NCBI RefSeq assembly: GCF_002608075.1
Contig: NZ_LAHA01000035.1
Coordinates: 14,453 to 77,333 of the forward strand
Direction: 5' to 3'
DNA length: 62,881 bases
DNA from: Nostoc linckia z4
Lineage (GTDB): Bacteria > Cyanobacteriota > Cyanobacteriia > Cyanobacteriales > Nostocaceae
Shown here: positions 704-60,821 of the stretch, piece after piece
Position numbering within the stretch: position 1 is the first letter of the stretch
Layout of the letters: every line of letters begins with the position of its first letter
The notes under the pieces: model-generated
Told to the model about the DNA's origin: nothing
The model's database searches: none
What the model saw: the letters and a program-made list of their open reading frames with translations, nothing else
Translations under genes and position numbers: made by a program

Positions 704-1204
704 GACACCCAATACTCACAGCAGGGTGCAAACAGCGTTAGATCTTCATTAAGCTAAAAAACATCTAAATTGCATAATCAAAATCTAATCATCATTAGAC
801 TTCTAAGAGAAGTGGGGAAAAGGGTAAGGGGTAAAGGGGAAAGCGGCTCATAAAAACCCTTTTCCCTTTAACCGAAACGTATTGAGGGAGAGGCTGTTGG
901 CGGCAGTCTCTCCTTTCCTCTGGGAATGACGATGGTTCAAAGAATTTGTATATTTTATTTTTTTGGAACTTCCTTAATTGAAGTGAGAAACAGCAAAGTG
1001 CTGCGGGAGCAGTGTGATACTAAATCCCAGAATTGTCCCACAATTAGGTCAAACCTCTGTAGCTGCGTTGTTGCTTGATACTCGATGCAACATTCCGCAA
1101 CAAATAAACCCTAATTAAGCAACCCTTATCAATGAAAAACCCGCCCTCGAACGCGAGAAAGCGGGTTTTAAGCAGAATGGATTTGTTTTGCTTATATCAA
1201 AGAA

Positions 1205-1651
1205 TCATTCAAGACTATTTGGGAAGAAAGCAGCAGGTGAAATATGAAAAAATTTCGCTAGTTCTTCAATGTGTCTAGTTGTTAGTTTACGCTGCTTTTT
1301 CAATATGGCCGATATAATAGATTCTGTTTTGAAAATGGGTAGTAAATCTTTTTGACGTAATCCATTTTCTTCTATCAAAACCTGAAGTAAATCTATTCCA
1401 TAAATATCAGGTATAGGCTCTTGTGCTTGTTCATACTCGTAAACCAGAGTGCCTAAAATATTAAGATAATCTTTTTCATCTAATGTTAATGGGGCACTAT
1501 CTATCAAAGAATTAATAACTTCTTGAGTAGCAAATAACTCCTCCTCAGTCTTGATAGGACGAGGAGGGAATGCTTGCAACAGTTCAATGTATGTAGGGCG
1601 TTTATTTAAACCAAGGGTCATTTTTCCATTTATTTGTATCGTACTCTGCAT
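1205..1651 (-). CDS. higA: HigA-like antitoxin, HTH (XRE-family) DNA-binding protein
   Basis: 148 aa with a C-terminal HTH-like segment (TTRHIEELAKFFHISPAAFF). It overlaps the upstream toxin ORF in the toxin-first arrangement typical of higBA. Confidence 0.55.
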   Translation of the reverse strand: MQSTIQINGKMTLGLNKRPTYIELLQAFPPRPIKTEEELFATQEVINSLIDSAPLTLDEKDYLNILGTLVYEYEQAQEPIPDIYGIDLLQVLIEENGLRQKDLLPIFKTESIISAILKKQRKLTTRHIEELAKFFHISPAAFFPNSLE

Positions 1652-1904
1652 GAGTTAATACGTTGCGAATAAATACTTTTTGACTTTGATAGTCAATAAA
1701 AGTAATAAGCCGATATTTATTTCCTTGAATATTAAAAACCGTAAGTTCACCTACTGAATCGGCAGAGTTGAAAGTTTCACGAACTTCAAGTATATTTTGC
1801 CACTTGGCTGATTTTACGGCTTTGTTCCAACCACGTAAACTAGATTCAGCATCAGGATACTTTTGATAAAAAAGTTTTAATGCTGTATTGGAAATTACAT
1901 GCAT
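1602..1904 (-). CDS. higB: HigB/RelE-family type II toxin (mRNA interferase)
   Basis: 100-aa protein. It sits upstream of an HTH antitoxin gene and overlaps it by about 50 nt on the same strand. Size and context fit a HigB-like toxin. Confidence 0.55.
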   Translation of the reverse strand: MHVISNTALKLFYQKYPDAESSLRGWNKAVKSAKWQNILEVRETFNSADSVGELTVFNIQGNKYRLITFIDYQSQKVFIRNVLTHAEYDTNKWKNDPWFK

Positions 1905-2650
1905 AGTAGATGTATTTTTTCAGAATAAATTTCATGATTTGACTTCCTTTGCAGTAGTTGAAACGACTCATAATTAATTACAACTTAGCAAATTGCTAAG
2001 TGAATGTCAACAGTTTAATGATTGGCTTTCGCTTTACCCTTATACTTCAATTAAACTCGTATACATGTTTAATGAAACAGAGAGTAGCTTTAAACCTGTA
2101 TACAGGTTTCTAGACTTCATTTAAAGGATAAAGTAATTCGTAATGGTCTACGGTTTTATCGACTTCTTGACCTTAAAACCATTCAATCCAGTCCTCTATA
2201 TCATCAGTTTCTACTACTCTCATTTTTACTTCATCAAAATCCTCTATTGTATAAAAAACTTTATATTTTCGGTTTATATCTAATGTGCTATCGCTCATAC
2301 ATTTATAAAATCTAAAACTATAAACCTGTATACAAGTATTTAATTACGCTTTTCATAATTTTATTTTTATACAAAAGTCAGTAAACTACCCTGTTTTTGA
2401 AAAAAGCAGGGGAAGCAGGGGAGGCAGGGGGAGAAGAAAGAGGGGTTATAAAAACGGATTTGGTATGAGGTAAGAAAATTAAAGTAATTTTGTCTAAATA
2501 GCTAAAACCTTCACCAGACAAGGAATCTAACCAAAATGCCAGTATGAGTGCGCCCTATTGGCGCTTGGCTGTGAGTAAATTCCAAAATTGCTTGATGTCA
2601 AAGGTTTTCAAGCATTTTGATGCAACTGAACTATTCTTCACATCTCAAGG

Positions 2651-3745
2651 TTGCATATTTTGATTTCAGTTCTCCCAAGAAGTAATACAGAAGGCAGTCA
2701 AACGATTACCTCAAACCAAATCAAACATCATTCTCATCTAAATCTAAAGTATATGCCTAACCCAAATTTGACAGACATTGCAAACAATCCAATTGTATAT
2801 GCACCTACGCAGACTGAGCCAGCAAACAAATATGCAAATTACTCACAAGCGAGTTCAGCGTTTGATATTTCTGAGGTAGATAACTTTCCCTTGGACAGCG
2901 ATTACGACCTCACAACCGAGCAAATCCATAACTTTCAGCACGATGGACATTTGCTGGTGCGCGGTGTAGTTTCTCCCAAAGAAATAGCTATCTACAAACC
3001 TGCGTTAGTAGAAACAGTTGACCGCTATGACCGAGAACAGCAAGCGATGGAAAAGACTGTTAGCGGTCAAAGTCAAGGATGGCAGTTTGTTGAAAACCTT
3101 TACCAACTCGATTTAGTTGCCCAACGCTTTGTTTTAGCTCGTCGGTTTGGCAAGATTGCTGCCGATTTATTAGGAGTTGATACTGTCCGCTTATTCCGCG
3201 ACCAATCTTATTTCAAAAAACCAGGAGGCGGTAATACACCGTGGCATCAAGATGGTTACTTTATGCCCCTAGATACAACTCAAATAGTCACAATGTGGAT
3301 TGCTTTGTCGGAGGTTTCCCCAGAAATGGCACCGATGACTTTTGCTAGCGGTTCCCACAAACAGGGCTATATCGGGGCTTCAATGCCGCTGGATGAGTCA
3401 ATGGATGAGTTTGAGCAATCCATTATTAAATCGGGGTTTCAACTCAAAAATTATGGAGCAATGGCAGCCGGAGATGCAAGTTTCCATTCTGGCTGGACGC
3501 TGCACAGTTCGCGCAAAAACACAAGCGATCGCACCCGCGAAGCCTTAGTGATTGTTTTTTACGCCGATGGAGCCAGGGTAACGATGCCCCCTGTACCCGC
3601 CAATGCTCTACCGCAGGAGCAGTTTGCCGCTGTAATTCGCCAACGCAACTTATCTACCTGTTTGCCAGGATTGAAACCGGGAGACTTGGCTGAAACTTCC
3701 ATGAATCCAATCGTTTACCGAAGAACTCTGACTTCTGAATTCTGA
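2651..3745 (+). CDS. Phytanoyl-CoA dioxygenase (PhyH)-family Fe(II)/2-oxoglutarate oxygenase; the true start may be an internal Met near 2753
   Basis: PhyH-like motifs (PWHQDGYF, HSGWTLHSS). An in-frame Met (MPNPNLTD) lies downstream of the first ATG. Confidence 0.5.
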   Translation: MHILISVLPRSNTEGSQTITSNQIKHHSHLNLKYMPNPNLTDIANNPIVYAPTQTEPANKYANYSQASSAFDISEVDNFPLDSDYDLTTEQIHNFQHDGHLLVRGVVSPKEIAIYKPALVETVDRYDREQQAMEKTVSGQSQGWQFVENLYQLDLVAQRFVLARRFGKIAADLLGVDTVRLFRDQSYFKKPGGGNTPWHQDGYFMPLDTTQIVTMWIALSEVSPEMAPMTFASGSHKQGYIGASMPLDESMDEFEQSIIKSGFQLKNYGAMAAGDASFHSGWTLHSSRKNTSDRTREALVIVFYADGARVTMPPVPANALPQEQFAAVIRQRNLSTCLPGLKPGDLAETSMNPIVYRRTLTSEF

Positions 3746-3830
3746 ATTCTTCTTCATTTTCCCATCTCAAACCTAGCGAACCAGCAACCGCCGAAATTAA
3801 TCCGATCGCTTACTCATCTTTGTTTCTGTC

Positions 3831-6068
3831 ATGGTTTACCAACGCACTCATACCTGGCTCTACTCTTTAAAAGACTCTCTGCAACCCCTCAAGCCGCATC
3901 TGACCCCCCTAGTCTGCCCGCAAGCGATAGAACAACTCGACTCTGTAAGCAGTTACTTTCCAGATGCGATCGCTTCGACTTATGGCTTTGAATATCGCCT
4001 GCAACCTTCTGCTCCAGTAGTTGACTTTGCTTTTCAAATTACCGATACCGGTCGAGACATTTTAGCAGGCTTAAACCCCCATACACGTCTGTCGGAGGAT
4101 TTTAACAAACATCCCGTTTGGCAACAAATTCAGAAGTTCTCCACCGAATGGGCAGATCCTTCTTCCTTACTCCATTACTTCATTAGCGATCTTTGGTTAG
4201 AGTTTGATTTAAAGCTGGATGGCGATACTAGTAGCTCGCCAAGTTCACTTGGCGGGGTAAAGGGGAAAGGGGAAAGGGGAAAGGTTTTAAATCCCTTACC
4301 CTTTACCCCTTCCCCCAGCCCTGACCCAGCATTTTTGGGTTGCCAGACTACTAATATCCCCATACCTGGGTTATTTTTCGGAGTGACTAGCCCACCAGAT
4401 AATTCAGGAATCTCCTTCAACTACTCTTGGATTTGGGAACAAGCTATGCCTTTATTATTAGGCACGCCTTTGCCTCCCGCCTTAGAGAAAAAATTCATCG
4501 ACTGTATCAAACGGTTGCCTCCCCGAACCAGCATTTTTCAGGTTGGGCTGATGTTTTCCCGAACCGTGGAAGCAATAAGACTCTGCCTTGTCGGTTCTCC
4601 TTCGGAATTGCTGCCATACTTGAATGAAATAGGCTGGACGGGACAGCTTGCGGAGGTAGAAAAGCTCGTCAACTCCCTTTCTGGCTGCGTTGATGGCATT
4701 ATCCTCGACCTTGATATTGGCGAACAGATTTACCCGCGAATTGGCATTGAAGGAATTTTTCTCACCCGGTACCAAGCCTGCGTAAACGGACAATGGGAAT
4801 CGCTGCTAGATTATCTAACTTCCCAAGGTTTATGTGCCAAAGAAACCAAAGATGCTTTGCTCAAATACTCTGGTTATAGCTTAGTAAAGCATCTGGGCGA
4901 TCGCATTTACGTCCGGGGGTTGAACCATATCAAACTCATTTATCAATCAGGGCAACCCCTAGCAAGCAAAATTTATTTTGGTGCAATGCATCAACCCCTG
5001 AGTAAAATACCTGGGCGTTCTGCTGAGACGGTAAGTACAGAGGACGCAACCAAGCAAGAACGTGGCGACGGGGGGAGAGTTTCCCATATCGAATCAGCCG
5101 TTACTTTTTTGCTAACTGCACGGAATTCTGAGGGGTGGTGGATTGATTTTCACCTAGCGGCTGGCTTGAGCGATGAATGGGTGACTGGTTATGTAGGAAC
5201 AATGTTAGCGAATATACCCGATTCCCGCGTTTCTAAAGCTGTTTCCACAGCTTGGAATCTGCTCAATAGTCGCCGCCATCGCGTCAATGGCAAATGGGGT
5301 TACAATCGTTTGCCCCCTGGCGATGCAGATAGTACTGGTTGGGTACTCCAGCTTGCCCGCGCTATTGGTGAGAGTAATTCAGAACGGGCGCGTCAAGCGA
5401 TGCAATCCCTAGCAGATCATAAGCGGCCGGATGGAGGTATTTGCACCTATGAGAGTGAGGAATCGATTCGGGCTTTTATTCATGCTTCTCCGGAAATCGG
5501 ATTTGCGGGTTGGTGCGGTTCCCATACTTGCGTGAGTGCGGCAATAGCAGCTTTGCCGGAATACCGCTTTCAGCTTCAAGATTATTTGCGATCGACTCAG
5601 CAAAATGATGGTAGCTGGCTGGCTTACTGGTGGCAAGATCCCGAATATGTAACAGCTCTAGCGGCTGAGGCGATCGCCGCTTGTTATCCAAATTCTGATT
5701 GTATTACCAACGCCGTGGCGTGGGGAATGAACCGCCTTAGTTCTCAGGGATTTGTCGCAACTAGCGATTGCCCCTCTGGTTCGCCATTTGCCACAGCTTG
5801 GTGCTTGCGACTGCTGATACTGAGACGGCAAGATACCGCAGTACAAGCAGCGATCGCCAAGGCAACTGATTGGTTATTAGCACAGCAACAGCCCAATGGT
5901 TCTTGGATTTCGTCAGCCAGGTTGCAAGTTCCATTACCGGATGACCTAAATCCCAATAAATTTAACCAGTGGATTTACCACGGCACGATTCAAGGCAGTG
6001 TAGTTTTTGACAAGTATTGTGTCTTCACCACCGCCACCGTATTACAAGCTCTACATCGTAGTTTATAA
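3831..6068 (+). CDS. Protein whose C-terminal ~400 aa carry squalene/terpene-cyclase or prenyltransferase-type alpha/alpha-toroid repeats
   Basis: Repeated QxxxGxW-like motifs (QQNDGSWLAYWW, QQPNGSWIS, GWWIDFHLAAG). Immediately upstream of the LanM-like gene and co-oriented with it. The low-complexity Gly/Lys/Pro segment is encoded by an inserted palindromic repeat. Confidence 0.5.
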   Translation: MVYQRTHTWLYSLKDSLQPLKPHLTPLVCPQAIEQLDSVSSYFPDAIASTYGFEYRLQPSAPVVDFAFQITDTGRDILAGLNPHTRLSEDFNKHPVWQQIQKFSTEWADPSSLLHYFISDLWLEFDLKLDGDTSSSPSSLGGVKGKGERGKVLNPLPFTPSPSPDPAFLGCQTTNIPIPGLFFGVTSPPDNSGISFNYSWIWEQAMPLLLGTPLPPALEKKFIDCIKRLPPRTSIFQVGLMFSRTVEAIRLCLVGSPSELLPYLNEIGWTGQLAEVEKLVNSLSGCVDGIILDLDIGEQIYPRIGIEGIFLTRYQACVNGQWESLLDYLTSQGLCAKETKDALLKYSGYSLVKHLGDRIYVRGLNHIKLIYQSGQPLASKIYFGAMHQPLSKIPGRSAETVSTEDATKQERGDGGRVSHIESAVTFLLTARNSEGWWIDFHLAAGLSDEWVTGYVGTMLANIPDSRVSKAVSTAWNLLNSRRHRVNGKWGYNRLPPGDADSTGWVLQLARAIGESNSERARQAMQSLADHKRPDGGICTYESEESIRAFIHASPEIGFAGWCGSHTCVSAAIAALPEYRFQLQDYLRSTQQNDGSWLAYWWQDPEYVTALAAEAIAACYPNSDCITNAVAWGMNRLSSQGFVATSDCPSGSPFATAWCLRLLILRRQDTAVQAAIAKATDWLLAQQQPNGSWISSARLQVPLPDDLNPNKFNQWIYHGTIQGSVVFDKYCVFTTATVLQALHRSL
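4254..4316. repeat. Palindromic small dispersed repeat (GGGGAAAGG-type) inserted in-frame in the 3831..6068 CDS
   Basis: ggggtaaaggggaaaggggaaaggggaaagg ... cccttaccctttaccccttccccc inverted repeat. A related element occurs at about 822..882 and about 2401..2450 in intergenic DNA. Confidence 0.7.
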
Positions 6069-6079
6069 GGAAAATTAAG

Positions 6080-9000
6080 ATGAACCCAGTTATTTCTAGT
6101 ATCTCTACACAGCAGTTGCCCGCGATCGCCAACCCCGTTATTTCTACAACTCAGTTGCAAAGCATCGTTAGCCGCGCTAGCAATCTGTTTGAACGACTCG
6201 ATCGCCAGATTTTCTCACCCTCCCCCGAAACTGATGAAAAACTCTTGCAATCGCGTCTTGAGACTTGGTGTCAGACAGTAGCAAAAGGAAATTTCGAGCA
6301 TTTTCAACAATACTTGCAATGGGATGGGCTGAATTTAGAAACAGCAAAAAGCGCGATCGCACCTGTATGTTTGCGCCACGATGCTCCCCTACCCAACTGG
6401 GCAAAGACACTCTCATCTGTTCTCAATCTTGCCTTTTCTCAGGCAGCAACAAATCTTGATGCAAAGACCTCACATCGCTTTTTGATTCCCCAGTCTCCCC
6501 TTCCCTTTGAAGAGATTCTCGCTCCATTTGTTTTATTTGCTCAACAAGAACTAATTGCTAGAACTGGCGAGTCTTACCAGAGATTAACCGATGAGGTTCA
6601 TGGTGTATTTGAACGCAGTTTGCTAGGTCAGTTAATTGACATCGCCACACAACCTTTACAGATAGCTTTTACCAGTTGGCGAGTCGCTCAACAATCCTCT
6701 TTTACTCGTCTACTGACACAGACACAAGAACTGCAAAGCCGCAACCTCTATATCCGCTTTGTTCGGGAAATGTTGCAGGGCAAACTAACTTCTTTTTTTG
6801 TAGAATATGCTGCTTTAGCAAGGTTACTGGCTACGGCAACCGAACTTTGGGTAGAATCGCAGTTAGAATTTCTGCATCACTTGGACGCAGACTGGTCAGA
6901 AATTGCAGAGAAATTTAACAACGGTTTACCTCTCGGTCAGGTGACAGCGGTGCAGCCTCTCCGATCTGACCCCCATCGCGGCAGACGCTCTGTAATTACA
7001 CTGAAAATCGAGCCAAATCTGCACTTAGTATACAAACCCAAGCATTTAGGCATTGAACAGGCGTACAATCAGTTTTTGGCTTGGTTAAACGAACAGGGTT
7101 CTCCTCTGCCTCTAAAAACCTTGCAAGTAATTAACCGCGATACTCACGGCTGGGTAGAGTTTGTCACCTCCCAAGCCTGTGAAGATACAGCCCAAATAGA
7201 ACGCCATTACCAACGGGCAGGGATGTTATTATGTTTGGTTTACGTGCTAGATGCTACCGATTGTCACTACGAAAATATCATTGCCTCTGGAGAATATCCA
7301 GTTCTAATTGATACCGAAGCTGTGATGCAGCATCGACCGAAAAACGAGTCATCAGCAAACCTACAGACTGCTCAACAACTCGCATTCCATCGCGTAGATA
7401 ATTCCGTGATGCGTACTGCCTTATTACCTGTCTGGCATCCAGCAGCCAATGGTAACTCCGGCTTTGATTTCAGTGGCTTGGGCAGCCACAATCAAGAGAC
7501 TAGGCATTATAAAGGACTCCAGTGGTCTGGCGTAAATACAGACCAGATGGCTTTAAATCAAAAGCTGCTGGCGATCGATCCATTTTTAGCTCACGTGCCA
7601 ACCTTAAATGGACAACCTGCCAATTTATCAGACTGGATAGAGGCAGTGGTGGAAGGATTTGAGCAGATGTATCGCTTCCTGCAAGAGAAACAAGACGTGT
7701 TACTCTCCCCAGATAGCCCGCTGCGGACAATGGCAAAACAGCTTGTGCGCTTTGTGTTTCGCCCCACAAACACTTATTTGAGAATTTTAAGCAAGCTCCG
7801 TAGTTCAGAGTACTTGCGGGATGGAGTTGACCGCAGTATTGGACTGGAAATCCTCAAGTTAACAGCAGCAGGCGCAACTGAAAAACCAAAATTCTGGTCT
7901 CTTCTCCAGTCTGAACGCCAACAAATGGAGCAGTTGGATGTTCCTTTTTTCTCAATTTATCCTGATACAGATGTGTTGGAGTTATCCCCAGATAGTCGCG
8001 TTGAGGGATTTTTCCAAGGTTCTAGCTTTGAATTAGTACTAGAGCGCATCAACAACCTGAGCAAATCTGATTTGGCGATACAAGTTGATTTTATCCGCAG
8101 CACTCTATATTTAAGAATGGTTCCCGGTCAAGAGATAGCTGCACCGGAAAAACCTGCCAATCAAACTTCTCTAAGCGTGCAGCAATCATCTGAGGCGATG
8201 CTGGATGAGTCAGATTTGGTTGCTGAGGTCATGGCAATTGCCCGCAGATTAAAAGAGCGAGCGATTTGCGCTCCTGATGGATCTGTAACTTGGCTTGCTC
8301 CTCAGTTTATCGCTCAACAACAGCGATTCCAATTTCAACCCACAGAACTGAGCCTTTTTGATGGCAAATTAGGAATTGCATTATTTCTGGCAGCGGTAGA
8401 GCATATTAAAAAAGATGGAGAGTTTCGAGAACTGTGTTTGGGAGCGTTGCAGGAGTTTCGTCAGGCGGTAGCCAAAATTGAACAGCCAAAAGGTGAATTC
8501 TCAAACCTGAATCTTGGCTTATCAACTGGACTAGGAGGATGGATTTACAGCCTGACTAAAATCGGTCAGTTTCTCAATGACGATCGCTTGCTTGCAGATG
8601 CTCTAAATTTGGCATACTCGATAGTACCAGAGGCAATTACTAGCGATCGCAGTTTGGATATCGCCGGCGGTACAGCAGGTACGCTTTTGAGTTTATTGGC
8701 ATTGTACCAGGTTGTTCGCGACCCAATTGTGCTAGAACGTGCCTGCCTGATTGGTCGTCATTTATTAGCCGAAAGTGTAATAACTTCTAAAGGCAGAGCT
8801 TGGAAAACGCTGGATGGTCGATTGTTAACGGGCTTTTCCCACGGAGCAGGCGGAATTGCCTACGCCCTGCTGAAACTGGCACAGGTGACGAATGATGCTG
8901 AGTTTCGGGCGGCTGCCGCAGAAGCGATCGCCTACGAACAAAGTATATTTTTACCAGAGGTAGGCAACTGGCCGGATCTCAGGGACTTTTCTAAATTTCT

Positions 9001-9448
9001 CCAAGCAAGTGCCAAATCCGAATCTTCTTCACTGATGTCTAGTTGGTGTCACGGTGCAACCGGTATCGGTTTAGCCCGCCTTGGCGGACTGCCAATGTTA
9101 GAAACTGAAGCAATCGATCGGGATATCCAAGTGGCAATCAAAACTACCCAAAAGCAACTCACCCAGAAACAAGGGATAGTAAACCAACTATGCTGCGGTC
9201 AGATGGGACAGATTGAATTTCTGCTATGTGCAGCCAGCCGATTGGGAAAACCAGATTTGTTGACAAATGCCAAAATTCATGCATTACAAATTGTGCAGCA
9301 AGCAAGACACAAAGGATATTATCTCGAACCCGCCCTACACTCAAGCGTATACGTTCCTGGTTTATTCCGTGGTGAGGTTGGTATTGGTTATACTTTGCTG
9401 CGCCTAACTCATCTGGAACAACTGCCTTCAATTCTTTTATGGGAATAG
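6080..9448 (+). CDS. lanM: Class II lanthipeptide synthetase-like protein (LanM-like: N-terminal dehydratase region plus C-terminal LanC-like cyclase)
   Basis: 1122 aa. The C-terminus has LanC-type zinc-ligand motifs (GFSHGAGGIAYALL, SWCHGATGIGLARL, LCCGQMGQIEFLL). Length and a long N-terminal domain fit LanM. Confidence 0.7.
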   Translation: MNPVISSISTQQLPAIANPVISTTQLQSIVSRASNLFERLDRQIFSPSPETDEKLLQSRLETWCQTVAKGNFEHFQQYLQWDGLNLETAKSAIAPVCLRHDAPLPNWAKTLSSVLNLAFSQAATNLDAKTSHRFLIPQSPLPFEEILAPFVLFAQQELIARTGESYQRLTDEVHGVFERSLLGQLIDIATQPLQIAFTSWRVAQQSSFTRLLTQTQELQSRNLYIRFVREMLQGKLTSFFVEYAALARLLATATELWVESQLEFLHHLDADWSEIAEKFNNGLPLGQVTAVQPLRSDPHRGRRSVITLKIEPNLHLVYKPKHLGIEQAYNQFLAWLNEQGSPLPLKTLQVINRDTHGWVEFVTSQACEDTAQIERHYQRAGMLLCLVYVLDATDCHYENIIASGEYPVLIDTEAVMQHRPKNESSANLQTAQQLAFHRVDNSVMRTALLPVWHPAANGNSGFDFSGLGSHNQETRHYKGLQWSGVNTDQMALNQKLLAIDPFLAHVPTLNGQPANLSDWIEAVVEGFEQMYRFLQEKQDVLLSPDSPLRTMAKQLVRFVFRPTNTYLRILSKLRSSEYLRDGVDRSIGLEILKLTAAGATEKPKFWSLLQSERQQMEQLDVPFFSIYPDTDVLELSPDSRVEGFFQGSSFELVLERINNLSKSDLAIQVDFIRSTLYLRMVPGQEIAAPEKPANQTSLSVQQSSEAMLDESDLVAEVMAIARRLKERAICAPDGSVTWLAPQFIAQQQRFQFQPTELSLFDGKLGIALFLAAVEHIKKDGEFRELCLGALQEFRQAVAKIEQPKGEFSNLNLGLSTGLGGWIYSLTKIGQFLNDDRLLADALNLAYSIVPEAITSDRSLDIAGGTAGTLLSLLALYQVVRDPIVLERACLIGRHLLAESVITSKGRAWKTLDGRLLTGFSHGAGGIAYALLKLAQVTNDAEFRAAAAEAIAYEQSIFLPEVGNWPDLRDFSKFLQASAKSESSSLMSSWCHGATGIGLARLGGLPMLETEAIDRDIQVAIKTTQKQLTQKQGIVNQLCCGQMGQIEFLLCAASRLGKPDLLTNAKIHALQIVQQARHKGYYLEPALHSSVYVPGLFRGEVGIGYTLLRLTHLEQLPSILLWE

Positions 9449-9718: not shown

Positions 9719-10174
9719 TCACTCCACCAACAACCCACTCACTACCAAAACCCTCAACTCCGTCACCCGCTTAAAAGCCGCATCATTAGTCAAAAACGCC
9801 TCACAACCAGCCATTAAAGCCGCCGCCACCTGCAACGCATCGGGTAACTGAAGGTTATAACGCACCCGAATTTTCGCGGCTTCTCGCGCAATAGCAGCAT
9901 TAATTTCTACAAAAACTACTTGTTCTTGTTGCAACATATCGACAAAAGCCTGCTCTAAATCCACTAACCCCAGACGTATAGCACCCACCAAACACTCTGA
10001 TAACGTTATTCCAGATACTACTGCTGTAATGTCAGCTTCTAACCGATCAAAAATTGGATCGACTAAATCCACAAACAACGGATTCCGTTCTACAAAATAA
10101 ATTACGGGTGCTGTGTCGAGAAATAAGCGAGAAACTCCAGCTAAGGCATCACTAATCTTCATTGTTCTGTTCAC
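9719..10174 (-). CDS. vapC: PIN-domain VapC-family toxin
   Basis: 151 aa with PIN-like acidic residues in conserved positions (LFLDTAPVIYF...TNDAAF). It overlaps an upstream small antitoxin ORF by 4 nt. Confidence 0.65.
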   Translation of the reverse strand: MNRTMKISDALAGVSRLFLDTAPVIYFVERNPLFVDLVDPIFDRLEADITAVVSGITLSECLVGAIRLGLVDLEQAFVDMLQQEQVVFVEINAAIAREAAKIRVRYNLQLPDALQVAAALMAGCEAFLTNDAAFKRVTELRVLVVSGLLVE

Positions 10175-10793: not shown

Positions 10794-13700
10794 TTGAAAA
10801 TCAGATTTTACAGTAATTCAGTAATGGCTACCTACTTTGAGGGTGTGATGTCTAAAGTAAGTATGGGTGAAAACTGGTTTTTAAAGCTAGGGATGGTTGC
10901 GGTTAATGTCAGACATTTAGATTGGTTACTTACATTAGGAATGGCGATCGCATTTCACCCAAATATCGCCATTGCACAAATCACCCCAGATACAACATTA
11001 CCCAATAATAGCAATGTAAATACACTAAATAACATTACAAATATCACTGGTGGCACACAAGCAGGAACTAATCTGTTTCACAGTTTCAGCGAATTTTCTG
11101 TTCTCAAAGATACTACAGCTTACTTTAATAATCCTCCAGATATTCAAAATATTATTAGTCGAGTTACAGGTGGTTCGCAATCAAAAATAGACGGAATTTT
11201 GCGGACGAACGCTACAGCGAATTTATTTTTAATTAATCCAAACGGCATTATTTTTGGAGAAAATGCCCGCTTAGATATTGGTGGTTCATTTATTGCTAGC
11301 ACAGCAAGTAGCATCAAATTTGCTAATGGTTTTGAGTTCAGTGCTACGACTCCTGAATCTACACCTTTACTAACGATAAATACACCCATTGGCTTGCAAT
11401 ATGGAGTTAATCCAGCCACTATTGAGGTCAAAGGCGACGGTCAAGGTGTAAGGCTCACAGATGAATTGATTGATACAACAAATGCACTGCGAGTACCAGC
11501 CAATCAAACTTTAGCCTTGGTGGGTGGCGATATTTCCTTAGAGGGAGCAACGCTAAAGACAGCAGGGGGAAGAATAGAGTTAGGCAGTGTAGGGGATAAC
11601 AGTTTAGTTAGTCTCACACCGATAACTAAAGGTTTTGCCTTGAGCTACGATGGAGTGCAAAACTTTGGCAATATTCAACTATCAAAACTTTCAGCGGTAG
11701 ATGCCAGTGGCGCAGGTAGCGGTGACATCCAAATCCAGGGTCAGCGGGTTACCATAGCCGATGGTTCCCAGATAGAAGCAAGTACTCTGTTAGAAGAAAA
11801 AGGTGGGAATTTAGTAGTCAATGCTACTAATTCAGTAGAATTAATTGGTACATCTGCTGATGGTTACTTTTCCAGTGGCTTGCTTGCTTCTGCTTACTCA
11901 ACCGGGGATGCCGGAGACTTGACAATTAATACTCAAAATTTGCTTGTGCTAGATGGGGCGCAAGTAAGTACAGCCACATTTGGTACGGCTAAGGGCGCTT
12001 CTTTAACTGTCAATGCTCAAGATGTGCAACTGATTGGTACTACTGCCGATGGTCTTTTTCCCAGTGGCTTGTTTGTTTCTACTCAATCAACAGGAGATGG
12101 CGGAGACTTGACAATTAATACCCAAAATTTGCTGGCGATCGATGGGGCACAGGTAGCTGTATATACATCTGGTGCAGGTAAGGCGGGTTCTTTAACTGTC
12201 AATGCTAAAGATGTGCAAATGATTGGTACTGTCAATAGTCAGTTTCCCAGTGGCTTGTTCAATTATGCTTACTCAACCGGGGATGCCGGAGACTTGAGGA
12301 TTAATACCCAAAATTTGCTTGTGCGCGATGGAGCTAATGTTGCTACGCAGACATATAGTGCAGGTAAGACGGGTTCTATAACTGTCAATGCTGAAGATAT
12401 ACAACTAATTGGTAGGAGTCCAAATGGTGACTTTGCCAGTGACTTATCTGTTAACGCTGGTTTAGGGTCAACTGGGGATGCTGGAAATTTGACGATTAAT
12501 ACCCAACGTTTGCTCGTGCGGGATGGGGCATACGTTGATGCCAGCATATACGGTACAGGTAAGGGTGGTTCTTTAACTATCACTGCTAATGATATACAAC
12601 TGATTGGTACTTCTACTGATGGTCGCTTTAGGAGTGGCTTGTTTACTCAAGCTTATTCAGGAATAACTGGGGATGCCGGAAACTTGACAATTAATACCCA
12701 ACGTTTGCTTGTGCTAGATGGCGCACAAATAGATGCAGAGACATATGGTGCAGGTAAGGGGGGTTTTTTAACTATCACTGCTAAAGATGTACAACTGATT
12801 GGTACTTCTAGTAATGGTTACTTTCCTAGCGGCTTGTTGACTTCTACTCTCTCAACCGGAGATGCAGGAAACTTGAAAATTGATACCCAACAGTTGCTTG
12901 TGCGGGATGGGGCACTGATAAATACCAGTACATCGGGTACAGGTAAAGGAGGTTCTTTAACTGTCACTGCTAACGATGTGCAACTGATTGGTGAGTCTAT
13001 TGATGGTTATCTTAAGAGCCGTTTATTTACTACTGCTGCCGTTGGAACAACTGGCAATGCAGGAGATTTGACAATTAATACTCAATATTTGCTGGTACGG
13101 GATGGTGCATTTGTTGATGCCAGTACACAAGGTACAGGTAAAGGAGGTTCTTTAACTGTCAATGCTCAAGATGTGCAACTGATTGGTGTCTCTAGTGATG
13201 GGCGTTCTGGCAGTGGTTTGAATACATCTGCTCAGTCAGGGTCAACTGGCGATGCTGGAGACTTGACAATTAATACTCAACAGTTGCTCGTGGGCGATGG
13301 GGCACAGGTGGGTGCAACCACATCGGGCGTAGGCAAGGGAGGTTCTTTAACTGTCAATGCCAAAGATGTGCAATTGATTGGTACTACTGCTGATAGTCGC
13401 TTTCCCAGTGGCTTGTTTACTACTGCTTACACAGGAGCAACTGGGGATGCAAAATTTTTGACAATTAATACCCAACAATTGCTTGTACGTGATGGGGCAA
13501 AAATCAGCGCCGGAACACAGAGTGCAGGTAAAGGGGGTTCTTTAACTGTCAATGCTCAAGATGTGCAATTGATTGGTACGTCTGCTGATGGTAGTTCTAG
13601 TAGTGGCTTGTTTGCTTCTACTGAATCAACTGGGGATGCAGGAGATTTAAAGATTAGTAGCGATAAATTACTCGTTCAAGATGGGGCGATAATCACTGTC

Positions 13701-14528
13701 AGAAGCTCAGGTAAAGGAATTGCAGGGAATTTAAATATTGATGCTGACTTTATCCGTTTGAACAACAAGGCTTCTGTTGATGCTAATACCCAGGCTGTCA
13801 ACACTGACCCGACTCAAGAACAAGCTACTATTACTTTGCGCTCTCAAAATTTACTATTGCTTCGTAATAGTAAAATCACCACTAATGCTTCTGGAGAAAA
13901 TGTCATCGGTGGCAATATCAATATTAATACTGATTTTTTAGTTGCATCTGACAATAGTGATATCAGTGCTAATTCTGCTGACTTTCGAGGTGGTCAGGTG
14001 ATAATCAATGCCAAAGGAGTATTTGGTACTCAATTTCGTGATGCACTCACCCCAAATAGCGATATCACTGCTACAGGAGCTAATCAGCAGTTGAATGGTA
14101 CAGTGCAACTCAATACACCACAACAAGATCCCACAAATGGTTTAGAGGAATTGCCATTAGAAGTAGTGGATGCCTCACAATTAATTAACCAAAACTTCTG
14201 TGCCAAAAGAGGTAATAGTAGCTTCACCATCGTTGGACGTGGTGGTTTACCTTCTTCCCCCAACACTGTGCTTAACAATAATACAGTTTGGGAAGATTGG
14301 CGAGTCACTGCTGTGCCAACACAAGCAGCAGAGTACACCAGTAAAAGAGATATTGAGAAAACTTCAGCACTCAGTACAGAGATTGTAGAAGCTCAGGGGT
14401 GGGTTGTGAATGCTAAAGGTGAAGTGATACTGACAGCTGCTGCACCGACTCCAAGACCCCACAGCTTGAGGAATTTACTTCAAGGGGCGACAAGCGAGTT
14501 AAAGTGCTTGCTGTATAAGCAGCATTGA
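10794..14528 (+). CDS. Large exoprotein with a filamentous-hemagglutinin N-terminal (TPS) secretion domain and ~60-aa tandem repeats (TpsA-like)
   Basis: N-terminal TPS-domain signature (NLFHSFSEFSV...ANLFLINPNGIIFGENARLDIGGSFIAST). About ten repeats of GDAGDLTINTQ.LLV.DGA...GKGGSLTVNA.DVQLIGT. The start codon is uncertain; several in-frame Met/TTG candidates. Confidence 0.7.
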   Translation: MKIRFYSNSVMATYFEGVMSKVSMGENWFLKLGMVAVNVRHLDWLLTLGMAIAFHPNIAIAQITPDTTLPNNSNVNTLNNITNITGGTQAGTNLFHSFSEFSVLKDTTAYFNNPPDIQNIISRVTGGSQSKIDGILRTNATANLFLINPNGIIFGENARLDIGGSFIASTASSIKFANGFEFSATTPESTPLLTINTPIGLQYGVNPATIEVKGDGQGVRLTDELIDTTNALRVPANQTLALVGGDISLEGATLKTAGGRIELGSVGDNSLVSLTPITKGFALSYDGVQNFGNIQLSKLSAVDASGAGSGDIQIQGQRVTIADGSQIEASTLLEEKGGNLVVNATNSVELIGTSADGYFSSGLLASAYSTGDAGDLTINTQNLLVLDGAQVSTATFGTAKGASLTVNAQDVQLIGTTADGLFPSGLFVSTQSTGDGGDLTINTQNLLAIDGAQVAVYTSGAGKAGSLTVNAKDVQMIGTVNSQFPSGLFNYAYSTGDAGDLRINTQNLLVRDGANVATQTYSAGKTGSITVNAEDIQLIGRSPNGDFASDLSVNAGLGSTGDAGNLTINTQRLLVRDGAYVDASIYGTGKGGSLTITANDIQLIGTSTDGRFRSGLFTQAYSGITGDAGNLTINTQRLLVLDGAQIDAETYGAGKGGFLTITAKDVQLIGTSSNGYFPSGLLTSTLSTGDAGNLKIDTQQLLVRDGALINTSTSGTGKGGSLTVTANDVQLIGESIDGYLKSRLFTTAAVGTTGNAGDLTINTQYLLVRDGAFVDASTQGTGKGGSLTVNAQDVQLIGVSSDGRSGSGLNTSAQSGSTGDAGDLTINTQQLLVGDGAQVGATTSGVGKGGSLTVNAKDVQLIGTTADSRFPSGLFTTAYTGATGDAKFLTINTQQLLVRDGAKISAGTQSAGKGGSLTVNAQDVQLIGTSADGSSSSGLFASTESTGDAGDLKISSDKLLVQDGAIITVRSSGKGIAGNLNIDADFIRLNNKASVDANTQAVNTDPTQEQATITLRSQNLLLLRNSKITTNASGENVIGGNININTDFLVASDNSDISANSADFRGGQVIINAKGVFGTQFRDALTPNSDITATGANQQLNGTVQLNTPQQDPTNGLEELPLEVVDASQLINQNFCAKRGNSSFTIVGRGGLPSSPNTVLNNNTVWEDWRVTAVPTQAAEYTSKRDIEKTSALSTEIVEAQGWVVNAKGEVILTAAAPTPRPHSLRNLLQGATSELKCLLYKQH

Positions 14529-18303: not shown

Positions 18304-19749
18304 TTGCGAAATTCAATGACACCACCGTCTACACGACTCGTCACCTCCCCCGCCACGGACTCGACAACAACCCAAGCAAAATCCGGTGGTTGCGGCTGCG
18401 ATAGCAGTACCACCGTGGAAATGGACGAAAAACTCCAAGAACGCATTGCTCAACATCCCTGCTACAGCGAAGACGCCCATCACCACTACGCCCGGATGCA
18501 CGTTGCAGTTGCTCCTGCCTGTAACATTCAATGCAACTATTGTAACCGCAAATATGATTGTGCCAACGAAAGCCGTCCTGGAGTAGTTAGCGAGTTGCTG
18601 ACACCAGAAGAAGCAGCACACAAAACTCTGGTCATTGCAGGCAAGATTCCCCAAATGACAGTTTTGGGAATTGCTGGCCCTGGCGACCCACTAGCCAACC
18701 CAGAAAAGACTTTCCGCACATTTGAGTTAATTGCACAGCAAGCACCAGATATTAAACTTTGTTTATCTACTAACGGTTTAATGCTCTCGGAATACATCGA
18801 TCGCATTAAACAGTTAAATATAGATCACGTGACGATCACCATCAACATGGTAGATCCAGAAATCGGTGCTAAGATTTACCCCTGGGTTCACTACAAACGC
18901 AAACGTTACAGAGGCATCGAAGGGGCGAAACTGCTGCACGAAAAGCAGATGGAAGGATTGGAAGCCTTAAAAAAAGCTGATATCTTGTGTAAAGTCAACT
19001 CCGTAATGATTCCCGGAATTAACGACAAACACTTGATTGAAGTCAATCGCGTCATTCGTGAAAAAGGTGCATTCCTGCATAACATCATGCCCTTGATTTC
19101 TGCACCAGAACACGGCACACACTTTGGTTTAATCGGTCAACGCGGCCCCACACCCAAAGAACTTAAAGAACTCCAAGACAGCTGCTCCGGTAACATGAAA
19201 ATGATGCGTCACTGTCGCCAGTGCCGTGCCGATGCAGTGGGATTATTGGGAGAAGACCGCAGCCAGGAATTTACCAAAGATAAATTCTTGGAAATGGCCC
19301 CAGAATATAACCTAGAAATGCGCCAAGAAGTTCACGAAGGTATTGAGAAATTTAAACAAGAAATTAAAGCAGCCAAAGAAAAGGCACTAGCTGGCAAAAA
19401 AGTTGCCAACAACCCCAAAATCTTAGTTGCAGTAGCAACCAAAGGTGGCGGTTTAGTTAACCAGCACTTCGGTCACGCCAAAGAATTCCAAATTTACGAA
19501 GTAGATGGTAATGAAGTTCGCTTTATCAGTCATCGCAAAATCGATCAATATTGCCAAGGTGGATACGGCGAAGAAGCTTCCTTTGAGCATATTATGAAAG
19601 CGATCGCAGATTGCAAAGCAGTTTTAGTTTCCAAAATTGGTAACTGCCCCAAAGAAAAATTGCAAGAAGCTGGTATACAGACTGTTGAAGCTTACGACGT
19701 AATTGAGAAGGTTGCTTTAGAGTTTTACGAACAATGGAGTAAGGAATAG
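18304..19749 (+). CDS. nifB: Nitrogenase FeMo-cofactor biosynthesis radical-SAM protein NifB (with a C-terminal NifX-like domain)
   Basis: CxxxCxxC radical-SAM motif ([17 protein letters not shown]). Length 481 aa. First gene of the conserved nifB-fdxN-nifS-nifU order. Confidence 0.9.
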
Positions 19750-19810
19750 GGCATGGCGCATGGGTCATGGGGCATAGGGAGATGAGGAAGATGACGGAGT
19801 GTGGAGAGAA

Positions 19811-19850
19811 TAACTCCTAACTCCTAACTCCTAACTCTTAACTCTTAACT
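19811..19850. repeat. STRR-type heptamer tandem repeat (TAACTCC/TAACTCT)n in the nifB-fdxN spacer
   Basis: taactcctaactcctaactcttaactcttaactc read directly. It is flanked by palindromic gggcat / atgccc heptamer arrays that form a long hairpin. Confidence 0.8.
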
Positions 19851-19963
19851 CAGCACTCACCATCCCCAATGCCCAATGCCCACTTGCCCTGAGCGAAGCC
19901 GTTCGCGTAGCGTCTCGCAGAGAAGGGATGCCCAATGCCCCATCTTCAAAAAGGAGAATAATC

Positions 19964-20317: not shown

Positions 20318-20486
20318 TAAGATAATTCGTAATTCGTAATGCAAAATTCAACTCAAAAATTACGAATTGTTGAAGCTTAAAAGTTAAAGGGTAACGGGTA
20401 TCAGGTTAGAGAATCAAAAGATTGGTAATTATCCCTCATTCCCTATTCCCCACATTGGTAATTATTCTGATATCAAATTACAAACA

Positions 20487-21695
20487 ATGGAAAAGAACTG
20501 CATCTATCTCGATAATAATGCTACTACCAAGGTAGATCCGCAAGTTGTAGAGGCAATGCTGCCTTACCTGACGGACTTTTACGGCAATCCCTCTAGTATG
20601 CATACTTTTGGCGGACAACTTGCCAAAGGCGTGAAAACAGCCAGAGAACAATTAGCAGCCTTATTGGGAGCCGATGAGTCAGAGATTGTCTACACCAGTT
20701 GCGGAACTGAGGGAGATAACGCCGCCATTCGCGCTGCATTGTTAGCGCAACCAGAAAAGCGACACATCATCACCACCCAAGTAGAACATCCAGCAGTACT
20801 GAATGTCTGCAAACAATTAGAAACCCAAGGTTACAACGTTACCTACCTTTCGGTGAACAATCGAGGGCAGTTGGATCTCAATGAACTAGAAGCTTCCTTG
20901 ACTGGTAACACGGCGTTGGTAACAATTATGTACGCCAACAACGAAACCGGTACGGTTTTCCCCATTGAGCAGATTGGGTTACGAGTAAAAGAGCATGGCG
21001 CTCTCTTCCACGTTGATGCGGTGCAAGCAGTGGGTAAAATTCCCATGAATATGAAGAATAGCACCGTAGATATGTTAACTCTGTCCGGTCACAAGCTACA
21101 CGCACCCAAAGGAATTGGTGCTTTGTATGTGCGACGCGGTGTGAGATTCCGTCCTTTGCTGCTTGGCGGACACCAAGAACGCGGACGCAGGGCGGGAACA
21201 GAGAATGTTCCGGGAATTATTGGCTTGGGTAAAGCTGCGGAACTAGAACTGTTACACTTGGAAGAAGCAACAAAAAGAGAAAGAAGGCTGCGCGATCGCC
21301 TAGAACAAACTTTACTCGCCACCATTCCCGATTGTGTAGTTAATGGTGACCCTACGCAGAGATTACCCAACACCACCAATATCGGCTTCAAGTACATTGA
21401 AGGTGAAGCAATTCTACTGTTATTGAACAAATTCGGTATCTGTGCCTCATCTGGTTCTGCCTGTACCTCTGGTTCGCTCGAACCTTCCCACGTCCTCCGG
21501 GCAATGGGCTTACCCTACACCACCTTGCATGGTTCCATCCGCTTCAGCCTTTCTCGCTACACCACAGAAGCTGAAATCGATAAAGTTATCGAAGTCATGC
21601 CCGGTATTGTAGAACGTCTACGCGCCCTCTCACCCTTCAAAAACGACGACGCAGGTTGGCTGCAAGGACAAGAACAAGCACTAGCGCACCGTTAG
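20487..21695 (+). CDS. nifS: Cysteine desulfurase NifS
   Basis: Class V aminotransferase / cysteine desulfurase pattern (SGHKLHAPKGIGALYV with the PLP-lysine; active-site SSGSACTSG). Position in the nif operon. Confidence 0.9.
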   Translation: MEKNCIYLDNNATTKVDPQVVEAMLPYLTDFYGNPSSMHTFGGQLAKGVKTAREQLAALLGADESEIVYTSCGTEGDNAAIRAALLAQPEKRHIITTQVEHPAVLNVCKQLETQGYNVTYLSVNNRGQLDLNELEASLTGNTALVTIMYANNETGTVFPIEQIGLRVKEHGALFHVDAVQAVGKIPMNMKNSTVDMLTLSGHKLHAPKGIGALYVRRGVRFRPLLLGGHQERGRRAGTENVPGIIGLGKAAELELLHLEEATKRERRLRDRLEQTLLATIPDCVVNGDPTQRLPNTTNIGFKYIEGEAILLLLNKFGICASSGSACTSGSLEPSHVLRAMGLPYTTLHGSIRFSLSRYTTEAEIDKVIEVMPGIVERLRALSPFKNDDAGWLQGQEQALAHR

Positions 21696-21861
21696 GGACT
21701 GGGAAGATGGGGAGATAGGGAGATGGGGAGATGAATTAATAACCAATGCCCCATACCCAATGACGGCAGTTGCTCCACTTGGGGAGACCCCAAGACCGCA
21801 CTGCCTCCCCCATACCAAATCCCTCAATCTAAAATCCAAAATCTAAAATCTAAAATTCACC

Positions 21862-23744: not shown

Positions 23745-24692
<948 letters not shown>

Positions 24693-24774
24693 ACTCTGAT
24701 GTAGGAAAAGGGAAAGGAAACAATTGCATAATTTACCTTTTACCTTGTTTCTACCGATTACCTGTATCCCCCAA

Positions 24775-45488: not shown

Positions 45489-45674
45489 AAACTATTTATA
45501 ACGTAAATCTTAACTAGATGCGTTACGGCTGAACGCCTGACACACCGCCATACAAGATGGTGTGTTAGGCGCTTAGTTCATATTTTTCTTAACGGGGAAC
45601 AGGGAACTCTTAACAGACTTTGCTGTTGCCTGTTGCCCGTTCCCTGTTCCCTCTCCCGAAGGGAGTTGACAATT

Positions 45675-58855: not shown

Positions 58856-59137
58856 AAAAACGAGAGAGACATAAGTATCTGGGGTTAATACCCCAGGAGG
58901 GAGTCGGGAATTCAAAATTCAAAATTAAAAATTCAAAATGATGTGTTTTGCTTTTTGCATTTTGAGTTTTGAGTTACATTTCCACTCCCTACGAAGAAGT
59001 AAAAAGTAAAAAGGCAAAAGGCAAAAGAGGTTCGATTAAGTTTTTCTTCTCTTTTTACTTTTTACTTTTACCTTTTAACTTACTAGTTCTGCCGATTCCT
59101 CCATTAGTAATTAACTCAGCAAGCTTGGAGATCAGAA

Positions 59138-60673: not shown

Positions 60674-60821
60674 AAATTACACGGTTACGCAAGTTATTAG
60701 GAACTAGCGGGTAGGGACTGGGGATTAAAAATTGGGGACTGGGAACTTAATTATTCCCAATCCCCAATGCCCAATGCCCCATACCCTATACCCACTCGCA
60801 AATTTAGCATTTACCTGAGGC

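What the first reader, a model, noticed from the sequence alone, without database searches (positions are those of the whole stretch)
4254..4316. Hairpin-forming small dispersed repeat inserted in-frame into a protein-coding gene
A GGGGAAAGG-type palindromic element (ggggtaaaggggaaaggggaaaggggaaagg ... cccttaccctttaccccttccccc) sits inside the 3831..6068 ORF. It encodes the low-complexity peptide SSLGGVKGKGERGKVLNPLPFTPSPSPDP without breaking the frame. Relatives of the same element occur intergenically at about 822..882 and about 2401..2450. SDR-like insertions into ORFs are a known Nostoc peculiarity. They may mark the gene as tolerant of, or inactivated by, the insertion.
Basis: seen in the sequence. 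Interest (0 to 1): 0.5.

Follow-up and report, generated by a model that had tools for sequence, protein, structure and literature searches.

The report
In-frame MITE inside a Nostoc gene
A 126-base non-autonomous transposon (a MITE related to IS630-family insertion sequences) sits in frame inside a biosynthetic gene of a Nostoc genome and adds a 41-residue floppy loop without breaking the gene; this is a known kind of event in cyanobacteria, shown here unusually clearly.

Summary
The hairpin at 4254-4316 is real, but it is only the core of a larger element at 4228-4353 (126 nt). The element has terminal inverted repeats (CTAGTAGYYCGCCAA / TTGSCAGACTACTAG), and the family is bounded by CTAG at both ends.

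Orthologues from other Nostoc strains have an empty site with one CTAG (GATACTAGTACAAAT). So this is an insertion, not native sequence.

A capped scan found at least 116 loci, all Nostoc, with 90 full-length copies. Ten of the 90 lie inside long ORFs, all in the one frame that is stop-free in all five copies compared. They encode the same peptide (SSSPSELGGVKGKGEGGKVLNPLP..PAFLGWQTT) in kinases, a GT39 glycosyltransferase, TrbI and polyketide synthases.

Both ends resemble the inverted repeats of an IS630-family IS (HTH + DDE_3) on Nostoc plasmids. It is therefore a MITE, not a 21-27 nt SDR.

The insert falls in a disordered loop. The ORF is intact. Alleles that share this insertion diverge with dN/dS of 0.12-0.21. 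The insertion is tolerated rather than inactivating.

The same CTAG was hit at least three times in orthologues: forward, reverse, and by a second family.

Of the two "relatives", 793-874 shares only the heptamer core, and 2401-2450 is just a heptamer array.

This is an ordinary, well-documented case.

The parts
4228..4353 (+). Complete MITE copy (126 nt; family consensus 133 nt counted CTAG to CTAG)
   Evidence: nhmmer full-length hit, profile positions 1-132. 84-90% identical to copies in other Nostoc genomes. Absent from orthologues.
4228..4242 (+). Left terminal inverted repeat CTAGTAGCTCGCCAA; its first four bases are the CTAG target
   Evidence: Terminal positions conserved in 80-90 of 90 copies. 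Aligns with IS630-family IS ends.
4238..4253 (+). Left subterminal small palindrome GCCAAGTTCACTTGGC
   Evidence: Paired in the predicted fold. Conserved across copies.
4254..4316 (+).
   Evidence: The left arm is expanded by 42 nt in the allele of locus L131.
4317..4339 (+). Right subterminal segment AGCCCTGACCCAGCATTTTTGGG, homologous to the inner part of the IS inverted repeat
   Evidence: Alignment A4.
4340..4353 (+). Right terminal inverted repeat TTGCCAGACTACTA. The final G of the expected CTAG and the next 8 nt of host sequence are missing (9-nt junction deletion, still in frame).
   Evidence: Compare 2RC, L125 and DSM 114161 (...GACTACTAGTACAAATAATATC) with the window (...GACTACTAATATC). 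The same deletion is shared by L130 and L131.
3831..6068 (+). Host gene, 745 aa, intact. The C-terminal half is a type II terpene cyclase (MstE-like). The insert is residues 133-173.
793..874 (+). Separate intergenic hairpin repeat that shares only the GGGGAAA/TTTCCCC core; not a copy of the MITE

Best explanation
The sequence at 4228-4353 is a non-autonomous DNA transposon (MITE) derived from, or mobilised by, an IS630-family insertion sequence of Nostoc. It integrated at a CTAG tetranucleotide in codons 132-134 (ACT AGT ACA) of a prenyltransferase/terpene-cyclase-like gene. The modal element adds 129 nt (43 codons) and has one frame that is stop-free in the five copies compared. An insertion at a CTAG whose C is codon position 2 is therefore read through. 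It adds a Gly/Lys-rich then Pro-rich peptide encoded by the two arms of the heptamer hairpin. Here the peptide (41 residues after a 9-nt junction deletion) lies in a disordered loop between two beta strands, and the protein has remained under purifying selection. Shown: the insertion, its ends, the family, the frame filter, the loop position, the similarity to IS ends, and constraint after insertion. Inferred: mobilisation in trans by the IS630-type transposase, a TA rather than CTAG duplication, and retained protein activity.
For: Empty versus filled sites: FACHB-252, a Logan assembly and FACHB-389 have GATACTAGTACAAAT, while the window and six other alleles carry an element exactly there. 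FACHB-389 (empty) and 2RC (filled) are 97-98% identical in the gene, so at least one insertion is recent. Family: a capped scan gave at least 116 loci, all Nostoc, with 90 full-length copies. They are bounded by CTAG...CTAG, and the outer flanks are unrelated. There are 228 places in 49 plasmid records. IS link: an IS on N. flagelliforme pNFSY03 and Nostoc C052 pC052_A encodes HTH and DDE_3 domains and is annotated IS630 family. Its inverted repeat CTAGTAGTCYGTCAAGYCAACTTTGCTGGGTGAG matches both MITE ends (my count from the sequences: 28 of 34 with the right end; alignment). Frame filter: one of six frames is stop-free in all five copies compared. All 10 of the 90 copies that lie in long ORFs use it. 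The same peptide occurs in an APH kinase, a HAMP histidine kinase, GT39, TrbI/VirB10 and PKS interdomain linkers. Tolerance: residues 129-173 have pLDDT below 50 and lie between strands 118-126 and 180-185. All eight full-length alleles whose DNA was translated whole have intact ORFs, and the empty FACHB-389 allele reads without a stop through its N-terminal half. The window, L131 and L130 share the same junction deletion, hence one event, and differ with dN/dS of 0.12, 0.17 and 0.21. L131 gained exactly 6 heptamers (42 nt), which keeps the frame. No terminator-like site lies in the element.
Against: No transposase of this kind is in the 62.9-kb window, and none was found next to the sampled copies apart from one distant IS630 relative in L068. 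Mobilisation in trans is therefore inferred. Sequence alone cannot separate a TA from a CTAG duplication, because every target is CTAG. Pairwise dN/dS assumes the shared junction deletion marks a single event without later recombination, yet the NJ tree places L130 away from the window and L131, which hints at recombination. A -61 kcal/mol hairpin inside the mRNA could lower expression. No transcript or protein data exist.
Confidence: 0.85

Rival explanations
1. The insertion has inactivated the gene, or silences it through the strong mRNA hairpin, and the ORF is a young pseudogene that has not yet decayed.
For: The insert is a -61 kcal/mol structure in the coding region. It interrupts a beta hairpin of the N-terminal domain. 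MITE inactivation of cyanobacterial toxin genes is documented (PMC10969869, read).
Against: There are no stops or frameshifts in any of the five filled allele types. dN/dS is 0.12-0.21 between alleles that inherited the same insertion. Later length changes (9-nt deletion, 42-nt expansion, internal deletion in 2RC) are all multiples of three. The GT39 gene keeps its copy across several Nostoc species. The flanking PhyH and LanM genes are intact.
Confidence: 0.1
2. It is a REPIN-like doublet of GTAG-tagged REP hairpins moved by a RAYT (Y1) transposase, not a DDE-transposon MITE.
For: Each end reads CTA-GTAG followed by a short hairpin (GCCAAGTNNACTTGGC on the left). GTAG-tagged REP families are reported in Anabaena and Nostoc (PMC3733652).
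Against: Both ends align over about 34 nt with the inverted repeats of a DDE_3/IS630-family IS. Copies are always bounded by a duplicated CTAG, and the empty site holds a single CTAG. That is the target behaviour known for IS630. From my own knowledge, REPINs are not expected to show it.
Confidence: 0.04
3. The segment is native low-complexity linker sequence of the protein family, lost in some orthologues.
For: The loop is variable in length among distant orthologues.
Against: 14 of the 16 orthologues in alignment A1 lack it, and one of the two exceptions carries a different insert. The DNA is a dispersed repeat with inverted termini found mostly between genes (80 of 90 copies). The same site carries it in reverse orientation in L125 and carries a different element in DSM 114161.
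Confidence: 0.01

Closest known systems
Cyanobacterial MITEs (Nezha of Anabaena variabilis / Nostoc PCC 7120, which shares its TIR with ISNpu3; MITEs a-e of Anabaena PCC 7120)
   Same: Size class (Nezha 130-170 bp), host group, inverted termini matching an IS, direct repeats, stable hairpin, empty and filled sites between relatives. ORF fusions with host genes are reported for the Anabaena MITEs (PMC3184786; PMC10969869).
   Different: This family has a tandem-heptamer hairpin core and a CTAG target. The Zhou 2008, Wolk 2010 and Elhai 2008 papers are not held.
Rickettsia palindromic elements (RPE)
   Same: Palindromic repeats of about 100-150 bp inserted in frame into unrelated protein genes, each family encoding a conserved peptide and apparently compatible with protein function (PMC10969869 and PMC3733652).
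   Different: Different phylum and unrelated sequence. Here an IS partner and a defined target (CTAG) are evident, and most sampled copies (80 of 90) are not inside long ORFs.
IS630 / Tc1-mariner superfamily insertion sequences
   Same: The partner IS has HTH + DDE_3 domains in two frames and is annotated IS630 family. Insertion is at CTAG. From my own knowledge (Tenzen et al. 1990), IS630 targets CTAG and duplicates TA.
   Different: The element itself encodes no transposase. A TA duplication could not be told apart from a CTAG duplication.
Nostoc small dispersed repeats (SDR, Elhai et al. 2008) and STRR heptamer repeats
   Same: Nostoc-specific dispersed short repeats, some inside genes. The core is made of tandem heptamers like STRR, and similar heptamer hairpins fill the nif intergenic spacers of this window.
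   Different: From memory, SDRs are 21-27 nt and lack inverted termini and a target duplication. This unit is 126-133 nt with both. From memory, the canonical STRR units (CCCCAGT, TTGGTCA, CAACAGT) differ from GGGGAAA.

Membership tests
MITE | Short (under about 300 bp) with no transposase gene | tested here: met
   126 nt here; the modal length is 133 nt in 39 of 90 copies. The one frame without stops encodes only the low-complexity peptide.
MITE | Terminal inverted repeats | tested here: met
   CTAGTAGTTCGCCAA / TTGGCAGACTACTAG, conserved in 76-90 of 90 copies per position.
MITE | Target-site duplication, with empty sites in relatives | tested here: met
   The empty site GATACTAGTACAAAT has one CTAG. 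Filled sites have CTAG at both ends. The window copy has lost the right-hand G plus 8 nt.
MITE | Many dispersed copies in a genome | tested here: met
   At least 116 loci in Nostoc genomes (capped scan). Up to 38 places on one 805-kb plasmid. Only one full copy in this window.
MITE | Termini match those of an autonomous IS that can supply transposase | tested here: met
   The IS on pNFSY03 and pC052_A; alignment A4.
MITE | Mobilised in trans by that transposase | not testable with these tools
   Needs a transposition assay. Indirect support: 2RC (filled) and FACHB-389 (empty) are 97-98% identical in the gene.
IS630-family derivative | Partner transposase has an HTH N-terminus and a DDE_3 catalytic domain | tested here: met
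   Pfam HTH_32/HTH_23/HTH_29 and DDE_3, E 4e-26.
IS630-family derivative | Insertion at TA (CTAG for IS630) with TA duplication | tested here: inconclusive
   The target is CTAG in the great majority of the 90 full-length copies (first four positions conserved in 80-86 of 90). Whether 2 or 4 bases are duplicated cannot be resolved from sequence.
Nezha MITE | Shares its TIR and direct repeat with ISNpu3; 130-170 bp; Anabaena/Nostoc | not testable with these tools
   Size and host fit. The Nezha and ISNpu3 sequences are not held.
SDR (Nostoc small dispersed repeats) | Unit of 21-27 nt (my recollection of Elhai 2008) | tested here: not met
   The mobile unit defined by empty versus filled sites is 117-150 nt.
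SDR (Nostoc small dispersed repeats) | Sequence match to SDR1-8 | not testable with these tools
   The paper is not held.
REP / REPIN (GTAG-tagged) | GTAG next to a short hairpin; inverted doublet | tested here: inconclusive
   The motif is present at both ends, but the same bases are part of the IS630-type inverted repeat.
REP / REPIN (GTAG-tagged) | Association with a RAYT transposase | not tested
   No RAYT search was made. Genome scans were exhausted.
Rickettsia palindromic elements | Sequence membership in the RPE families | not tested
   Only the behaviour (in-frame palindromic insert) is shared.

The most novel reading that the evidence does not exclude
This MITE family may be pre-adapted to coding DNA. 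Its net gain is 3n (129 nt). It keeps one stop-free frame that encodes a flexible Gly/Lys then Pro-rich peptide. Its heptamer arms can grow or shrink. It would then act in Nostoc as a recurrent source of disordered loops and interdomain linkers, including in PKS and RiPP-tailoring enzymes. Heptamer slippage in steps that are not multiples of three units could also switch such genes off and on.
Probability: 0.12. Interest if true: 0.55.

Novelty: new member of a known kind. Interest (0 to 1): 0.3.

Why it matters
For annotation, the 41-residue low-complexity stretch in this protein and in other Nostoc proteins is transposon-derived. It should be masked in homology searches, because it produced spurious hits between unrelated proteins. 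For biology, this is a clean natural example of a MITE being tolerated inside an enzyme under selection. The data explain why one site is hit repeatedly. Of the 10 CTAG sites in the empty allele, only 3 are in the permissive phase, and only this one lies in a disordered loop. The phenomenon is already known from Rickettsia RPEs and Anabaena MITEs, so it adds a well-resolved case rather than a new principle.

Tried and rejected
1. I looked among the 116 fetched loci for an autonomous IS carrying the MITE termini, using pairs of ends 250-4000 nt apart. All such pairs were separate MITE copies, and the two candidates (L086, L110) contain ordinary genes.

2. tblastn of the IS630-type transposase found nothing in the window, and only a distant relative in L068.

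3. Rfam at a permissive threshold gave only sub-threshold matches, almost all to eukaryotic miRNA precursors. These are generic hairpin matches with no meaning.

4. The promoter and terminator scan found nothing in the element.

5. I tested whether the 343-aa gene call in N. calcicola FACHB-389 (P0029) reflects a MITE-caused frameshift. It does not: that allele is empty, its N-terminal half reads without a stop, and the short product is a gene-calling artefact.

6. I considered a single ancient insertion with in-situ inversion or core replacement to explain the reverse copy (L125) and the second family (DSM 114161). This is judged less likely, because the reverse copy differs from the forward ones at many positions along its whole length (my comparison of the sequences). 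It is not excluded.

7. The papers of Elhai 2008, Wolk 2010 and Zhou 2008 could not be read.

8. The exhaustive peptide search of 50%-identity representatives gave only 20 hits at E<=0.001. A 42-residue query is weak against 1.8 billion sequences, so this undercounts carriers.

Full report
OBSERVATION

The region 4254-4316 is an imperfect palindrome. Tandem GGGGAAA-type heptamers face TTTCCCC-type heptamers across an 8-nt loop. It is found as inverted repeat I12. With short flanks it folds at -44.8 kcal/mol, better than all 200 dinucleotide shuffles (z -3.3).

THE INSERT IS LARGER THAN REPORTED

A homologue search and the alignment of 17 orthologues show that 14 of the 16 orthologues lack about 41 residues, SSSPSSLGGVKGKGERGKVLNPLPFTPSPSPDPAFLGCQTT. 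These lie between two conserved blocks (LWLEFD... and ...IPIPGLFF).

At DNA level, the empty allele of Nostoc punctiforme FACHB-252 reads GATACTAGTACAAATAATATC. The window has 126 extra-looking bases starting at that CTAG.

A profile built from five copies (the window copy and four from other genomes) matches the window at 4228-4353 over its full length. The independent copies match the window copy at 84-90% identity. The whole unit folds at -60.9 kcal/mol (z -4.65).

WHAT THE UNIT IS

The same peptide turned up in five unrelated Nostoc proteins: an APH-type kinase, a HAMP histidine kinase, two GT39 glycosyltransferases and a TrbI/VirB10 protein. Their DNA gave this consensus:

CTAGTAGTTCGCCAAGTGAACTTGGCGGGG-(heptamers)-loop-(heptamers)-CCCAGCCCTCACCCAGCATTTTTGGGTTGGCAGACTACTAG

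Ninety of these are full-length copies, with a modal length of 133 nt.

The termini CTAGTAGTTCGCCAA and TTGGCAGACTACTAG are inverted repeats, conserved in 76-90 of 90 copies per position. The DNA outside the two CTAGs is unrelated from copy to copy. On plasmids there are 228 places in 49 records, 33 of them Nostoc. The architecture is that of a MITE.

THE PARTNER IS

One plasmid copy abuts a gene annotated as an IS630-family transposase. That IS is about 1.2 kb and has two ORFs in different frames. They carry HTH_32/23/29 domains and a DDE_3 domain. A 93%-identical copy exists on a Nostoc sp. C052 plasmid.

The IS is itself bounded by CTAG. Its inverted repeats, CTAGTAGTCYGTCAAGYCAACTTTGCTGGGTGAG, align with both ends of the MITE. 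By my count from the sequences, 28 of 34 positions match the right end.

From my own knowledge, IS630 inserts at CTAG and duplicates the central TA. That fits the single CTAG in empty sites and the CTAG at both ends of filled sites. Sequence alone cannot show whether 2 or 4 bases are duplicated.

No such transposase is present in the window. Any mobilisation would be in trans. This step is inferred.

WHY IT IS IN FRAME

- Of the six frames, only one is free of stops in all five copies compared.
- The modal element adds 129 nt, or 43 codons.
- Of the 90 full-length copies, 10 lie within ORFs that extend at least 50 codons on each side, and all 10 use that frame and orientation. The other 80 are not inside long ORFs.
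- An exhaustive peptide search also found the peptide in large proteins. Two of these are type I polyketide synthases, where it falls between annotated domains.

The empty allele of the host gene has 10 CTAG sites. Only 3 have the C at codon position 2, which the open frame requires.

CONSEQUENCE FOR THE HOST PROTEIN

An AlphaFold2 model (mean pLDDT 74) places residues 129-173 in a stretch with pLDDT below 50. This stretch lies between strand 118-126 and strand 180-185. The insert (133-173) is therefore an extension of a loop.

The window, L131 and Nostoc sp. ZfuVER08 (L130) share the same odd right junction, GACTACTAATATC. It lacks 9 nt compared with GACTACTAGTACAAATAATATC in the other filled alleles. 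They therefore descend from one insertion event.

Between these three alleles dN/dS is 0.12, 0.17 and 0.21 (39, 59 and 60 synonymous against 16, 35 and 44 non-synonymous changes). The gene has thus stayed under purifying selection after the insertion.

Every later length change keeps the frame:
- the 9-nt junction deletion;
- a 42-nt (six-heptamer) expansion of the left arm in L131;
- an internal deletion in strain 2RC, which leaves a net gain of 117 nt.

No terminator-like signal lies in the element.

Caveat: the neighbour-joining tree does not group ZfuVER08 with the window and L131. Recombination may therefore blur the "after insertion" argument.

RECURRENT USE OF THE SAME SITE

Members of the two 90%-identity clusters around the window protein show five states at this one CTAG:
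- empty;
- forward copy with the junction deletion (window, L131, ZfuVER08);
- forward copy with intact junctions (2RC);
- a copy of the same family in reverse orientation, read in another frame that happens to be open in that copy (L125);
- a different MITE with related ends but a GGGGAGCA-type core (Nostoc sp. DSM 114161).

N. calcicola FACHB-389 is empty yet 97-98% identical to 2RC across the gene, so the 2RC insertion is recent.

I infer at least three, and probably four, independent insertions. The likely reason is survivorship. This is the only CTAG in the gene that is both in the right phase and in a tolerant loop.

THE CLAIMED RELATIVES

- Region 812-873 matches only the heptamer core of the profile (E 5e-7) and lacks the termini. 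It belongs to a separate hairpin repeat of about 80 nt, also found on N. flagelliforme plasmids.
- Region 2401-2450 is not detected by the profile, does not form a hairpin, and matches elsewhere only as a 35-nt heptamer array.

COMPARISON WITH WHAT IS KNOWN

In-frame palindromic inserts are classic for Rickettsia RPEs. MITE-ORF fusions are reported for Anabaena PCC 7120 (PMC10969869; PMC3184786). Nezha is a 130-170 bp MITE of Anabaena and Nostoc that shares its ends with ISNpu3. I could not obtain either sequence, so whether this family is Nezha remains open.

The SDR label does not fit the size or the architecture. A REPIN reading is suggested by the GTAG next to a hairpin at each end. It is disfavoured because those bases are part of the IS630-type inverted repeat and because of the CTAG target.

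VERDICT

This is a real, well-defined and mechanistically ordinary feature. A Nostoc IS630-type MITE has inserted in frame and been tolerated. It is a new, or at least not verifiably described, member of a known kind.

Noticed in passing
window 2651-9448: The host gene sits in a conserved three-gene cassette: a PhyH dioxygenase, this gene, then a class II lanthipeptide synthetase (LanM). The cassette recurs in many Nostoc. The C-terminal ~340 residues of the model match MstE, the type II terpene cyclase of Scytonema (55% identity, TM 0.88). The whole model has weak hits (E about 1e-3, TM about 0.5) to ABBA aromatic prenyltransferases; these may reflect the Pfam-less N-terminal 410 residues, but which part aligns was not checked. 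This may be a terpenoid-modifying enzyme of a lanthipeptide pathway.
   Followed up: partly
window 19749-19870, 20365-20464, 21675-21779, 24684-24765, 45587-45670, 58997-59074, 60698-60813: Heptamer-repeat hairpins of several sequence types sit directly after gene ends. The first three fill the nifB-fdxN, fdxN-nifS and nifS-nifU spacers, and the fourth follows the next ORF downstream, which was not annotated. None has the MITE termini.
   Followed up: partly
L127 1741-1790 and 3001-3134; L128 280-305: Both IS630-family IS copies examined are inserted at the terminal CTAG of a MITE copy, so MITE ends themselves serve as targets for the IS.
   Followed up: no
L086 1163-3196 (also P0022, P0023, L025, L122): A GT39 glycosyltransferase carries the MITE peptide at the same position in several Nostoc species. 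One variant is extended (…GKGEDGAPFGDKGEGGK…). The in-frame copy has therefore been retained and has evolved over speciation.
   Followed up: partly
L131 gene positions about 400-590: Only the left (GGGGAAA) arm of the hairpin has expanded, from 4 to 10 heptamers, which makes the palindrome asymmetric. This looks like replication slippage inside a coding region.
   Followed up: no
window 1205-1904 and 9719-10174: A HigB/HigA-like toxin-antitoxin pair and a PIN-domain gene flank the lanthipeptide cassette. A 1244-aa protein with a TPS secretion domain follows at 10794-14528.
   Followed up: no
one search hits P0020-P0024: The MITE-encoded peptide creates significant (E 1e-7 to 1e-10) but meaningless protein-protein hits between unrelated Nostoc proteins. 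This is a trap for automated homology annotation.
   Followed up: yes
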